Of a stretch of DNA of 64,000 bases, positions 19,978 to 22,238 are shown piece after piece. The translations under genes and the position numbers were made by a program. Positions within the stretch are counted from its first letter, which is position 1. The number at the start of each line of letters is the position of its first letter. The stretch comes from the human T2T-CHM13v2.0 reference genome, Homo sapiens. The notes under the pieces are model-generated. The model was not told the DNA's origin, did not search any database, and worked only from the letters and a program-made list of their open reading frames with translations. The DNA lies in NCBI RefSeq assembly GCF_009914755.1, contig NC_060926.1; one strand, given 5' to 3'.

Positions 19978-20584
19978 GCATAACATTTTACTTGTCTGTA
20001 TCTAATATCAGGCCTACAGCATGCACACGTGTGTGCACGCATACACACACACACACACGCCAAGCAGCCCTCTTGTTTTCAGGAGCACAGAAAGAATTCT
20101 ACTATTTAGATGCAGTCAATTGGACCAGATGATGCAGTGATAGCCTGGAGTGTTAAGCCCCAGACCACCAAAAGAGAAGCAATGGGCATTCGTACTGTCC
20201 AAGGAGTTGCAGCAAGTTCTCAACCTGGTGACTTAGCAGAAACCCCAAGGCAGAGCTCCTCCAGCTTTTCATGGGGAGGCTTCCTCATCGATGGGACACA
20301 GGGGGATGAAGGGAACAGTGGGGGAAGTGATGGGTGGTGAGTGGAAAGGAAGGGTAAAAGTGCAGAGGGCAGCTGCCATCTGGGAATCTTACTGCAAGCC
20401 ACGGGAATGCGGATCAAGCCAGCACCTCACACTCCCCCTGCTCCACATACACACACATCACTTGAGACATCACCATCTCAAATACGGTTGTTCAGCCTCA
20501 AAGCTGAGCAAGCACAGTCTTTAGTGTTGGCAACAAAATAGACATCTGACCTTTTAGGTGTGAGTTAGCAAAGGCAGACTCTAT

Positions 20585-20985
20585 AATTGTTAGCATAGGC
20601 TAAGGTGCAGTAACAAACAGACCCAAATGCAGTGACTAAACACCACGGAAGTTTATTTCTTGCTCATGTAACATCTTGGGCAGTGCTCCAACCTGTGAGC
20701 AGCTCTCTCCACCCGGTCTTTCAAGGAGCCAGGCTCCTTCTGTCATGAGGCTCTGCCATGCACGGAAGTTTCACTCCCTAAGGTTGGTGAAAGACGAAAG
20801 GGATATAGAAGAGTGTTGGCCTGGAAGAGGTACACTGCACTTTCACTCACATTCCCCTGGTGAGGAATTGTTGTGTCTCTGCTCAGATGTAAGAAAGGGA
20901 CGAAGAAATGGATTCCCTGGCTGGGCAGCTCCTCCCCAGTGACAACTATATAGTATGGAAAGGAGATGGCCACCTCTTCCACAGT
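20585..20985 (-). mobile_element. MLT1 (MaLR) LTR
   Basis: ggtgcagtaacaaacagacccaaa...gaagtttatttcttgctcatgtaacat... Confidence 0.65.
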
Positions 20986-21099
20986 AACTCTGAATTCATG
21001 CACTCCTCTGCTCCCAGGAAAAACCTTGGTTTACACATGACAAATAAGATAGAAACTACGTTCATTTCACTTTACTTCTACTTTCTAATTAAGGTTGGG

Positions 21100-21500
21100 G
21101 GCCGGGCATGTTGGCTCACACATGTAATCCTAGTGCTTTGGGAGGCCAAAGCAGGCAGATCACTTGAGGTCAGAGTTCGAGACCAGCCAGGCCAACATGG
21201 TGAAACCCCGTCTCTACTAAAAACACAAAAATTAGCCAGGCACTAAAGACTGTGTTTGCTCAGCTTTGACGCTGAACAACCATATTTGAGATGGTGACGT
21301 CTCAGGTGCCTGTAATCCCAGCTACTGGGGAGGTTGAGGCAGGAGAATCACTTGAACCCAGGAGGCAGAGGTTGCAGTGAGCGGAGATTGCACTATTGAT
21401 ATTTTGGGCGGCAGAATTCTTTGTTGCAGGGGTCTGTCCTGTGCACTCCAGCCTGGGCAACAGAGAAAGACTCCATCTTAAAAAAAAAAAAAAAAAAAAA
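21100..21500 (+). mobile_element. AluS carrying two inverted templated insertions
   Basis: Alu about 100 bp longer than consensus; non-Alu inserts at 21241-21304 and 21389-21445; degenerate TSD aaggttggg/aagtttggg. Confidence 0.95.
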
Positions 21501-22016
21501 GTTTGGGAAGATGATCAAAGAAGAGGAAGGCCAGGTAGAAGTCACTTACCTCCCTTTTATTCTATTTGAGTGCCTAGTTAGTGCATGAGTGGTGTCTTAG
21601 CAGCCCACCCCACCCCACCCCACCCCAGGCTTAACTAAGTGTGAAGATCTTTATTGGTTCCAATGTCAGAAAAAGGATGAAGTCCAAATGCGTCAGAGTC
21701 CTGTTCATTCTGTTCCTGGCCTGTTTTATTGGTTCCTTGTCCTATCTCCTCCTCCTCCTATCCTCATTCAGCCTACACACCAGCCACATCCAGCTCCCTC
21801 TGCCCGTGCCCGCCATGCTCTTTAATGCCTTCGCACCCATGCACACTGTTCCTTCAGAATAAAATGCCCTTACCCCTCTGCTGTGCCTGGCAAACTTCCA
21901 CACACTGTTCAAGATGCAGCTCAAGCATACCCTTGCTCCCCGCCCTTAGTCCCATAATCCTTTGAGCACGCATCCATTAAAGCACGTAGGTTACTTTGTG
22001 TCTGTCTCCAATTAGA

Positions 22017-22238
22017 CCAGCAGTTCTCAACCAGAGGCAATTTCACCCTCCACTCCCAAGGACATTTGGCAATGTCTAGAGACATTTTTGGTTGTCACAA
22101 CTCGGGGGAGGGGGTGATACTGGCATCTAGTGGATAGAGGCCCGGGATGCTGCTAAAAATCCTATAATGCACAGGACAGACCCCCACAACAAAGAATTCT
22201 CCTGCCCAAAATGTCAACAGTGCAGAGGTTAAGAACCT
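22017..22238. mobile_element. MER20 DNA transposon
   Basis: cagcagttctcaacc...ggacatttggcaatgtctagagacatttttggttgtcacaac...actggcatctagtgg...gttaagaacc. Confidence 0.9.

What the first reader, a model, noticed from the sequence alone, without database searches (positions are those of the whole stretch)
20463..22224. Alu with two inverted templated insertions, one copied from each flank
Seen: 21241-21304 is the reverse complement of unique DNA at 20463-20526 (60/64 identical). 21389-21445 is the reverse complement of the MER20 segment 22168-22224 (51/57 identical). Each insert replaces a few Alu bases and has junction microhomology (CA and CAGGTG/CAAGTG; TGCACT and TGCA). The start-to-start offsets are nearly symmetric: 778 bp upstream and 779 bp downstream. 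Inference: there were two out-and-back template switches, either by L1 ORF2p RT onto flanking DNA during integration or by replication/repair synthesis (polymerase theta, MMBIR). The 6-11% divergence suggests an old event, possibly close to the Alu's own age. If transcribed, the Alu could pair with both flanks to form two ~60-bp dsRNA stems. The offset symmetry may be coincidence.
Basis: partly seen in the sequence, partly recalled or inferred. Interest (0 to 1): 0.8.

Follow-up and report, generated by a model that had tools for sequence, protein, structure and literature searches.

The report
Alu patched with inverted flank copies
An ordinary old Alu element carries two ~60-base patches, each a reverse-complement copy of DNA about 0.78 kb away on its own side, most likely the scar of one ancient germline DNA-repair accident.

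Summary
Alu 21100-21500 (+ strand, 9-nt target-site duplication) holds two foreign patches. Patch 21241-21304 is the reverse complement of 20463-20526 (60/64). Patch 21389-21445 is the reverse complement of 22168-22224 (51/57).

Patch 1 has one other copy in the genome, the flank. For patch 2 the adjacent MER20-like repeat ranks first, but narrowly. It shares three non-consensus states that none of 38 distant copies combine.

All four junctions show 1-6 nt of microhomology. No other low-copy local inverted pair turned up in about 143 kb examined, so the two patches are linked.

The mirror geometry (loops 714 and 722 nt; centre-to-centre 778 and 779) holds only with the Alu in place. The arms look younger than the Alu (ratio 0.36, p=0.055). 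I therefore favour one post-integration repair event: fold-back synthesis at both resected ends of a break, or serial template switching. L1 ORF2p at integration is less likely.

Mouse meiotic misrepair is a close precedent. This is a new variant of a known kind, of moderate interest. Primate orthologues would settle the timing.

The parts
20459..20526 (+). Source A: unique flanking DNA copied in reverse orientation into the Alu. Core is 20463-20526; 20459-20462 is junction microhomology.
   Evidence: 60/64; 63/68 with the extension; only two genomic copies.
20693..20777 (-). Annotated internal exon of predicted gene LOC124906010 (hub annotation), lying between source A and patch 1.
   Evidence: Hub annotation. 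AG and GT splice dinucleotides read on the minus strand; the A/A' stem closes a loop that contains this exon.
21091..21099 (+). Left target-site duplication of the Alu (AAGGTTGGG).
   Evidence: 8 of 9 identical to 21499-21507.
21100..21240 (+). Alu left monomer, A-rich linker and first bases of the right monomer.
   Evidence: collinear with the Alu consensus.
21241..21304 (+). Patch 1 (A'): reverse complement of 20463-20526. Replaces about 13 Alu consensus positions. 21305-21308 is ambiguous microhomology.
21305..21388 (+). Alu middle piece (84 nt) kept in normal order and orientation between the two patches.
21389..21445 (+). Patch 2 (B'): reverse complement of 22168-22224. Replaces about 3-8 Alu positions. 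TGCAC(T) and TGCA microhomologies at its ends.
21446..21500 (+). Alu 3' end and 21-nt poly-A tail (21480-21500).
21499..21507 (+). Right target-site duplication (AAGTTTGGG), overlapping the end of the poly-A tail.
22019..22243 (+).
   Evidence: termini read directly. (55 or more genomic relatives). (alignment continues beyond the arm on both sides).
22168..22224 (+). Source B: the segment of the repeat copied in reverse orientation into the Alu.

Best explanation
A normal S-type Alu integrated by target-primed reverse transcription. Later, in the germline of an ancestral primate, one compound repair event inside the Alu wrote two inverted copies of flanking DNA into it.

The most likely course is this. 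A two-ended break or short gap opened in the right half of the Alu, with its edges about 100 bp apart in pre-event coordinates. Both ends were resected by at least 0.78 kb. Each 3' tail folded back on its own strand at a 1-6 nt microhomology about 715-720 nt upstream and was extended by 57-64 nt. Each tail then unfolded and re-engaged Alu sequence at a second microhomology, either on the sister or homologue or on the retained middle fragment. Repair was completed by annealing and fill-in, which puts both patches on both strands of one chromatid.

Shown: the local origin of both patches, their inverted orientation, the microhomologies, the collinear Alu, the TSD, and the clustering.

Inferred: the break, the resection, the fold-back, the single-event timing, and the germline or meiotic setting.
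For: (1) Each patch derives from its own side, and both are inverted. That is what fold-back of the two 3' tails of one break predicts: the plus strand on the left and the minus strand on the right.

(2) There is microhomology at all four junctions.

(3) The two patches are linked. No other low-copy local inverted pair was found in the rest of the window or in 26 control loci totalling 81,114 bases. The one candidate there, L064, belongs to a repeat family with 876 candidates. The chance of a second independent event in the same 300-bp Alu is at most 0.006. The divergences of the two pairs do not differ (4/64 against 6/57, Fisher p=0.51).

(4) The mirror geometry (loops 714 and 722; centre-to-centre 778 and 779) holds only with the Alu present.

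(5) The arms look younger than the Alu (non-CpG 1.8% against 5.0% per lineage, p=0.055).

(6) There is published precedent. In mouse spermatocytes, misrepaired meiotic breaks carry locally inverted insertions of 16-709 bp with microhomology at one breakpoint. One event had an inverted insertion from each side, and left and right inserts mirrored each other (bioRxiv 10.1101/2020.06.23.168138, passages read). Such insertions were absent when resection was abolished (PMC13532658, passages).

(7) Average meiotic resection tracts are reported as about 800 nt in yeast and 1100 nt in mouse (PMC12003770, passages), the same scale as the 0.78 kb here.
Against: Published fold-back loops are short (41 nt in the yeast system, PMC11724301), and that paper reports that extensive resection suppresses fold-back.

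I found no pre-existing complementarity that would guide a 714-nt loop.

The mouse events accompany kilobase deletions, whereas here only about 13 and 3-8 nt were lost.

Nothing in the sequence shows that a break ever existed. The age difference from the Alu is not significant. It is also inflated if some of the 11 Alu substitutions are subfamily-diagnostic.

The strand skew of CpG decay in the left part of the Alu is opposite to what exposure of the left plus-strand tail would give.

A model with one nascent strand and four switches explains the same anatomy.
Confidence: 0.45

Rival explanations
1. One nascent strand made four serial template switches during replicative repair (MMBIR or FoSTeS at a stalled or collapsed fork, or break-induced replication). 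While crossing the Alu, the strand left its template, copied about 64 nt of the like-polarity strand 0.7 kb behind, and returned. It then copied 84 nt of Alu, left again to copy about 57 nt of the like-polarity strand 0.8 kb ahead (for example the displaced strand of a D-loop), and returned.
For: The anatomy, microhomologies and cis arrangement are the same. [quoted passage not shown] Proposed templates are the lagging-strand template or the opposite strand within a BIR D-loop (PMC8421209, passages). The CA-skewed CpG decay across the whole Alu (12 CA: 1 TG) would fit prolonged exposure of the minus strand as template, though a regional bias explains much of it.
Against: This model needs a single-stranded template about 0.8 kb ahead of the growing end. 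It gives no natural reason for the mirror symmetry. Published callers look only within 100 bp (PMC8421209) or 250 bp (PMC9435742), so this range is undocumented rather than excluded.
Confidence: 0.25
2. L1 ORF2p, or a polymerase acting on the TPRT intermediate, switched from the Alu RNA or cDNA onto exposed flanking DNA and back. This would have happened once during first-strand and once during second-strand synthesis, so the patches would be as old as the Alu.
For: ORF2p copies DNA templates, extends hairpins and makes template-jumping products in vitro (PMC10830420, passages). L1-driven insertions in cell models include template switches, fold-backs by self-annealing of resected ends and templated insertions (PMC11702581, passages). 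The arm divergence is not significantly lower than the Alu's (p=0.055).
Against: The documented jumping is onto a new template after the end of the first, not out and back from the middle of a template. The integration looks canonical, with a full-length element, poly-A tail and 9-nt TSD, although both flanks would have had to be single-stranded for more than 0.6 kb. From the target site the sources are not symmetric (about 637 against 717 bp to their far ends). The point estimate of age is about one third of the Alu's.
Confidence: 0.12
3. Two independent template-switch or fold-back events hit the same Alu at different times, for instance because the Alu is a recurrent stalling or breakage site. 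The symmetry would then be coincidence.
For: Other Alus carry locally templated fillers at the same two positions: L104, L113 and possibly L094. This shows such insertions recur in Alus, but I chose those positions myself, so it is no evidence of a hotspot. The exact 778/779 equality is unlikely to be an original feature anyway.
Against: Clustering: the chance of a second independent event is at most 0.006. The two distances match within 8 nt (p about 0.006-0.012 under uniform priors). The two divergences are indistinguishable. The other Alus carry single, direct-orientation fillers with 0-1 nt of microhomology, which is a different signature.
Confidence: 0.1
4. Short DNA fragments released nearby (double-cut fragments or cleaved flaps) were captured by end joining at two breaks in the Alu, and the source sites were restored from the homologue.
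For: Ectopic insertion of SPO11 double-cut fragments (median 67-95 bp) is documented in mouse germ cells (PMC13532658). The patch sizes of 57-64 nt fit.
Against: Captured fragments typically show about 0-1 bp of microhomology, whereas all four junctions here have some. This model needs four breaks plus two restorations. It gives no reason for both fragments to be inverted.
Confidence: 0.05
5. Assembly artefact or chance similarity.
For: None found.
Against: The arms differ by 6-11%, with CpG-type decay on both copies. A mis-join would give identical copies. Patch 1 has only two copies in the genome.
Confidence: 0.01

Closest known systems
Locally inverted insertions at misrepaired meiotic double-strand breaks in mouse spermatocytes (Lukaszewicz et al., bioRxiv 10.1101/2020.06.23.168138; PMC13532658)
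   Same: Germline events. Inverted copies of nearby sequence of 16-709 bp. Microhomology at a breakpoint. Dependence on end resection. One recorded event with an inverted insert from each side, and left and right inserts that mirror each other.
   Different: Those events were recovered as kilobase deletions between hotspot pairs, mostly in Atm-/- mice, with the inserts mapping at the break sites. Here nothing but about 16-21 nt is lost, the sources remain in place 0.7 kb away, all four junctions show microhomology, and the event is a fixed fossil in a primate genome.
MMBIR-type templated insertions (MMB-TI; Osia et al., PMC8421209) and short-range template-switch mutations (Loytynoja and colleagues; PMC9435742)
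   Same: A reverse-complement copy of nearby sequence inserted with replacement of a few bases. Microhomology at the switch points. Present as human germline variants. Multi-template events are known.
   Different: Those events are defined and searched within 100 bp or 250 bp of the insertion. Here the jumps are 714-842 nt, and two events sit side by side drawing on opposite flanks.
Fold-back (snap-back) synthesis at resected DSB ends in yeast (PMC11724301)
   Same: The 3' tail anneals to its own strand at an inverted microhomology and is extended, giving an inverted templated insertion.
   Different: The yeast inserts are mostly about 5-34 bp with a 41-nt loop, and are suppressed by RPA and by extensive resection. 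Here the loops are about 715-720 nt.
L1 ORF2p twin priming and template switching during retrotransposition (PMC10830420, PMC11702581)
   Same: Produces inversions and chimeric inserts inside retrotransposed copies. ORF2p can copy DNA and extend hairpins.
   Different: Twin priming inverts part of the element itself. Here the Alu is fully collinear and the inverted pieces are flank DNA.

Membership tests
Alu SINE inserted by target-primed reverse transcription | Dimeric Alu sequence collinear with the consensus, a 3' poly-A tail and flanking target-site duplication | tested here: met
   collinear apart from the two patches. Poly-A tail at 21480-21500. TSD 8 of 9 identical. Assignment to the S group rests on similarity to the consensus derived here and on recalled diagnostic positions. 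No Dfam or RepeatMasker library was available.
Microhomology-mediated inverted templated insertion (MMB-TI / template-switch mutation) | The inserted segment is the reverse complement of a nearby template | tested here: met
   (60/64 and 51/57). Local origin.
Microhomology-mediated inverted templated insertion (MMB-TI / template-switch mutation) | Microhomology at the switch junctions | tested here: met
   1-2 nt (CA); up to 6 nt with one mismatch (CAGGTG/CAAGTG); 0-6 nt (TGCACT, depending on the CpG state of the Alu at the time); 4 nt (TGCA).
Microhomology-mediated inverted templated insertion (MMB-TI / template-switch mutation) | Template within about 100 bp (MMBSearch) or 250 bp (TSM filter) of the insertion | tested here: not met
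   The loops are 714 and 722 nt. The published limits are search settings, not mechanistic bounds.
Fold-back inverted insertion at a resected double-strand break | A break at the insertion site, and a template on the same strand within the resected tail | not testable with these tools
   Orientation and side of both templates fit. The break and the resection leave no direct trace.
L1 twin priming | Part of the retrotransposed element itself is inverted, with the inversion junction inside the element | tested here: not met
   All Alu parts are in one orientation and in order.
Inverted triplication (DUP-TRP/INV-DUP, small inverted triplications) | A segment present three times as direct-inverted-direct | tested here: not met
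   Each source has exactly one extra, inverted copy.
Inversion with inverted duplications at its breakpoints (staggered-break model) | The sequence between the duplicated ends is inverted, and the copies abut the opposite breakpoints | tested here: not met
   The order is A, A', B', B, and the intervening Alu is collinear.

The most novel reading that the evidence does not exclude
The locus is a sequence fossil of a single meiotic break, possibly a SPO11 double cut leaving a gap of about 100 bp. Both resected tails folded back and were extended up to the single-strand/duplex boundary, so the far ends of the two sources (20463 and 22224, each about 778 nt from its junction) would record the two resection endpoints of one ancient recombination event. 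More broadly, it may be one visible member of a class of kilobase-range templated insertions that current callers, limited to 100-250 bp, cannot see. In the two Alu-site scans, 2 further Alus (L104, L113) and possibly a third (L094), out of 8 with non-Alu filler, had a template 1.0-1.5 kb away.
Probability: 0.15. Interest if true: 0.7.

Novelty: new variant of a known kind. Interest (0 to 1): 0.5.

Why it matters
Template-switch and fold-back insertions are an under-counted source of germline mutation clusters. The published genome-wide callers look only within 100-250 bp of the insertion. This locus shows an old, fixed event with jumps of 0.7-0.8 kb, two patches in cis, and mirror symmetry. 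That pattern resembles what mouse experiments produce at misrepaired meiotic breaks.

If more such paired events exist, their geometry could be read as a record of resection lengths and break spacing in ancestral germlines. It would also call for wider search radii in mutation-cluster callers.

Locally, the event created two predicted RNA duplexes of 57-68 bp in the introns of a predicted gene, one pair bracketing an exon. This is the arrangement that inverted Alu pairs use to drive A-to-I editing, exon skipping or back-splicing. None of those outcomes was tested here.

Tried and rejected
I replaced it with a scan of 26 loci already held (81 kb) plus the window. The background density is therefore only bounded: fewer than 1 per 48 kb at 95%.

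(3) I looked for pre-existing complementarity that could guide the fold-backs and found none beyond the junction microhomology (energies within the shuffled range, fractions 0.125-0.715).

(4) I considered APOBEC-type or single-strand-damage explanations for the CA-skewed CpG decay (12 CA: 1 TG). Among controls with at least 8 decayed sites the most skewed is 12:2. The window's Alus show a mild regional bias of 109:83. By my own reading, decays in the arms after the event are also CA-biased, so a long-term local strand bias is as likely as a one-off exposure. I left this as a side note.

(5) queried the wrong segments of L104 and L094, because I used reverse-complement coordinates by mistake. 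They carry no information and were redone.

(6) I rejected inverted triplication, inversion with duplicated breakpoints, twin priming, and models based on two converging or diverging forks. The first three fail on anatomy. The fork models put the two patches on different sister chromatids.

(7) Nearest-neighbour Alus turned out to be biased towards the target's own CpG decays in the left arm, so I did not use them for dating. An unselected set of 46 Alus was used instead.

(8) No paper describing paired inverted flank-derived insertions inside an Alu appeared in the listings. Those are listings of the top 10-25 papers only, not an exhaustive search.
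Full report
WHAT IS THERE

The region holds a plus-strand Alu at 21100-21500. It has a 21-nt poly-A tail (21480-21500) and a 9-nt target-site duplication, AAGGTTGGG at 21091-21099 against AAGTTTGGG at 21499-21507. I aligned it to three Alu consensuses built here: 13 window Alus, 20 nearest genomic Alus and 46 unselected Alus. 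It is collinear throughout except for two foreign segments.

Segment 21241-21304 replaces about 13 consensus positions at the start of the right monomer. Segment 21389-21445 replaces about 3-8 positions near the 3' end. Between them lie 84 nt of normal Alu (21305-21388).

The repeat finder reports the first segment as the inverted partner of 20459-20526 (68 nt, 93%, 714 nt apart) and the second as the inverted partner of 22168-22224 (57 nt, 89%, 722 nt apart).

LOCAL ORIGIN

Patch 1 has two copies in the 3.1-Gb assembly: itself and the flank. A 261-nt stretch around the flank copy matches only itself and the patch. The patch was therefore copied from the flank, and it is the derived copy because it interrupts the Alu.

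I could not check that name. The element has terminal inverted repeats and at least 55 relatives. The adjacent copy is the best genomic hit, but narrowly: 89% and 77 bits against 88% and 70.7 bits (40 of 55 candidates scored).

Over the 57 columns the patch matches the neighbour at 51 positions, the best distant copies at 49, and the consensus of 38 distant copies at 50. So identity alone does not decide.

What does decide is three shared non-consensus states, at 22180, 22199 and 22224. They are carried by 4, 7 and 2 of the 38 distant copies, and no copy combines all three. The copy that ranks first also happens to lie 722 nt away. Two adjacent mismatches (CA against TG) sit at a site where other copies split the same way. 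This fits a CpG that was intact when copied and decayed separately in both arms.

JUNCTIONS

All four junctions carry microhomology:
- CA, 1-2 nt.
- CAGGTG against CAAGTG, up to 6 nt with one mismatch.
- TGCACT, 0-6 nt, depending on whether two Alu CpGs had already decayed.
- TGCA, 4 nt.

No longer complementarity pre-exists near the junctions.

ARE THE TWO PATCHES LINKED?

A self-comparison of the window found no other low-copy local inverted pair (the filter hid pair 1 because gapped Alu alignments cover it). In 26 control loci (81,114 bases) the only candidate, in L064, belongs to a repeat family with 876 candidates (here pair 2 was hidden because relatives of its repeat were in the database).

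With none found in about 143 kb, the chance that a second independent event falls in the same 300-bp Alu is at most 0.006. The two pairs do not differ in divergence (Fisher p=0.51).

The distances agree closely: loops of 714 and 722 nt, and centre-to-centre distances of 778 and 779 nt. Under uniform priors, agreement within 8 nt has p about 0.006-0.012. The 1-nt agreement should not be over-read. From the Alu's own indel rate, 2.6-5.1 indel events are expected in the two loops since the event, and the loops contain a poly-A tail and a short pentanucleotide run.

TIMING

Against the consensus of 46 unselected Alus, the Alu shows 11 non-CpG substitutions in 218 sites, and 2 of 17 inferred CpG sites remain intact. 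The arms show 4 non-CpG differences in 111 sites. That is 1.8% per lineage against 5.0% for the Alu, a ratio of 0.36 with one-sided p=0.055.

The Alu figure is inflated if some of its differences are subfamily-diagnostic, so this is a lean and not a result. With the usual primate neutral rate of roughly 1e-9 per site per year (recalled, not computed here), the arms suggest an event some tens of millions of years old. I expect it to be shared among apes and perhaps Old World monkeys.

MECHANISM

An inverted copy means that the growing strand read a template of its own polarity. Patch 1 draws on the left flank and patch 2 on the right. This is what two 3' tails of one break would do: the plus-strand tail on the left and the minus-strand tail on the right, each folding back on itself.

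If each extended tail then re-engages Alu sequence and the two new strands anneal through the Alu middle piece, fill-in puts both patches on both strands of one chromatid. I checked the alternatives based on two converging or diverging forks by strand bookkeeping. They place the two patches on different sister chromatids, so I rejected them.

The symmetry exists only when the Alu is counted. From the pre-insertion target site the far ends of the sources are about 637 and 717 bp away. This argues for an event after integration.

PRECEDENT

The literature supports the model's parts.
- In mouse spermatocytes, misrepaired meiotic breaks carry locally inverted insertions of 16-709 bp with microhomology at one breakpoint. 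One event has an inverted insert from each side, and left and right inserts mirror each other (10.1101/2020.06.23.168138, passages).
- Such insertions vanish when resection is abolished (PMC13532658, passages).
- Mean meiotic resection is reported as about 800 nt in yeast and about 1100 nt in mouse (PMC12003770, passages).
- Closely spaced double cuts that leave short gaps or fragments are described in the same papers.

AGAINST THE MODEL

Documented fold-back loops are short and are suppressed by extensive resection (PMC11724301). The mouse events come with kilobase deletions. Nothing in the sequence proves that a break occurred.

RIVALS

One nascent strand with four switches (MMBIR/FoSTeS/BIR) explains the same anatomy and is the kind of event catalogued as MMB-TI. 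These are human germline variants of about 100 per person, sometimes multi-template, with the lagging-strand template or the opposite strand of a D-loop proposed as donors (PMC8421209). It gives no reason for the symmetry and needs a single-stranded donor 0.8 kb ahead.

ORF2p at integration stays possible, because the enzyme copies DNA, extends hairpins and jumps templates (PMC10830420) and L1 intermediates can self-anneal (PMC11702581). However, the known jumping is end-to-end, the integration here is canonical, and both the geometry and the age lean against it.

Two independent events, fragment capture, and artefact are less likely still, for the reasons given under the rivals.

IS IT A CLASS?

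I scanned the genome for Alus with 45-75 nt between the anchor words that flank each patch. There were 45 hits at site 1 and 72 at site 2, with none for the reversed control patterns. Judged by eye from the printed matches, most are tandem duplications of Alu sequence.

Besides this locus, eight hits carried filler that looked non-Alu: L094, L104, L111 and L112 at site 1, and L113, L114, L115 and L116 at site 2. I searched for a template within 1.5 kb on either side of each.
- L104 has a 38-nt filler that is 97% identical to a segment 1246 bp away (centre to centre), and that segment is otherwise unique in the genome.
- L113 has a 33-nt filler that is 100% identical to a segment 1469 bp away.
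- L094 has a 26-nt filler that is 96% identical to a segment 1012 bp away, but the segment lies in a repeat family, so it is ambiguous.
- L111, L112, L114 and L116 have no local template. L115 has only A-rich matches.

The three positives are direct in orientation, are single, and have 0-1 nt of junction microhomology. They probably arose another way.

So kilobase-range local templating is not unique to this Alu, but the paired, inverted, microhomology-rich form is. Published callers search only within 100 bp (PMC8421209) or 250 bp (PMC9435742).

CONSEQUENCES

In the minus-sense RNA of the predicted gene LOC124906010, the arms are predicted to form duplexes of -115.6 kcal/mol (A/A') and -95.4 kcal/mol (B'/B). 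The A/A' stem forms in both the minimum-energy and the centroid structures of 20440-21330 (z=-10.3) and encloses exon 20693-20777. Editing, exon skipping or back-splicing are plausible but untested, and the gene model is only predicted.

VERDICT

It is best filed as a long-range, paired, mirror-image variant of microhomology-mediated inverted templated insertion. It most likely reflects one post-integration germline repair event. Primate orthologues, which were not available here, would settle the timing and whether there was one event or two.

Noticed in passing
window 21100-21500 (also 19673-19980 and the four arms): CpG decay in this Alu is strand-skewed: 12 CA against 1 TG outside the patch junctions. 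The 46 control Alus pool to 296:296, and the most skewed among controls with at least 8 decayed sites is 12:2. Window Alus expressed on the genomic plus strand give 109:83. The neighbouring Alu is 8:4. By my own reading, decays in the arms after the event are about 4 CA: 1 TG. This may be a local, long-term excess of C-to-T change on the minus strand, which is the coding strand of the annotated genes. It is unexplained.
   Followed up: partly
L104 (G000:C9:139835331-139835368 and 139834070-139834137); L113 (G000:C1 near 10262506); L094 (G000:C3 near 112085365): Other Alus carry single, direct-orientation fillers of 26-38 nt at the same two Alu positions, copied from 1.0-1.5 kb away with 0-1 nt of junction microhomology. 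The L104 source is otherwise unique in the genome. The L113 copy is 100% identical. The L094 source lies in a repeat family.
   Followed up: partly
window 35141-35541 and 39847-40316: Two direct-repeat blocks about 4.57 kb apart (83% over 145 nt and 91% over 212 nt), low-copy within the window. This looks like the two LTRs of an old endogenous retroviral or MaLR-type element. The family was not identified.
   Followed up: no
window 6206-6385, 8193-8372, 10218-10427: A segment of about 180 nt is present three times in direct orientation (81-86% identity) within the MIR4432HG region.
   Followed up: no
window 22345-22495: A long, degenerate GATA-type microsatellite lies immediately downstream of the repeat that holds source B.
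   Followed up: no
window 21607-21626: A short run of a CCCCA-type pentanucleotide sits inside the right-hand loop. It is a mutable tract that could have changed the 722-nt loop length since the event.
   Followed up: no
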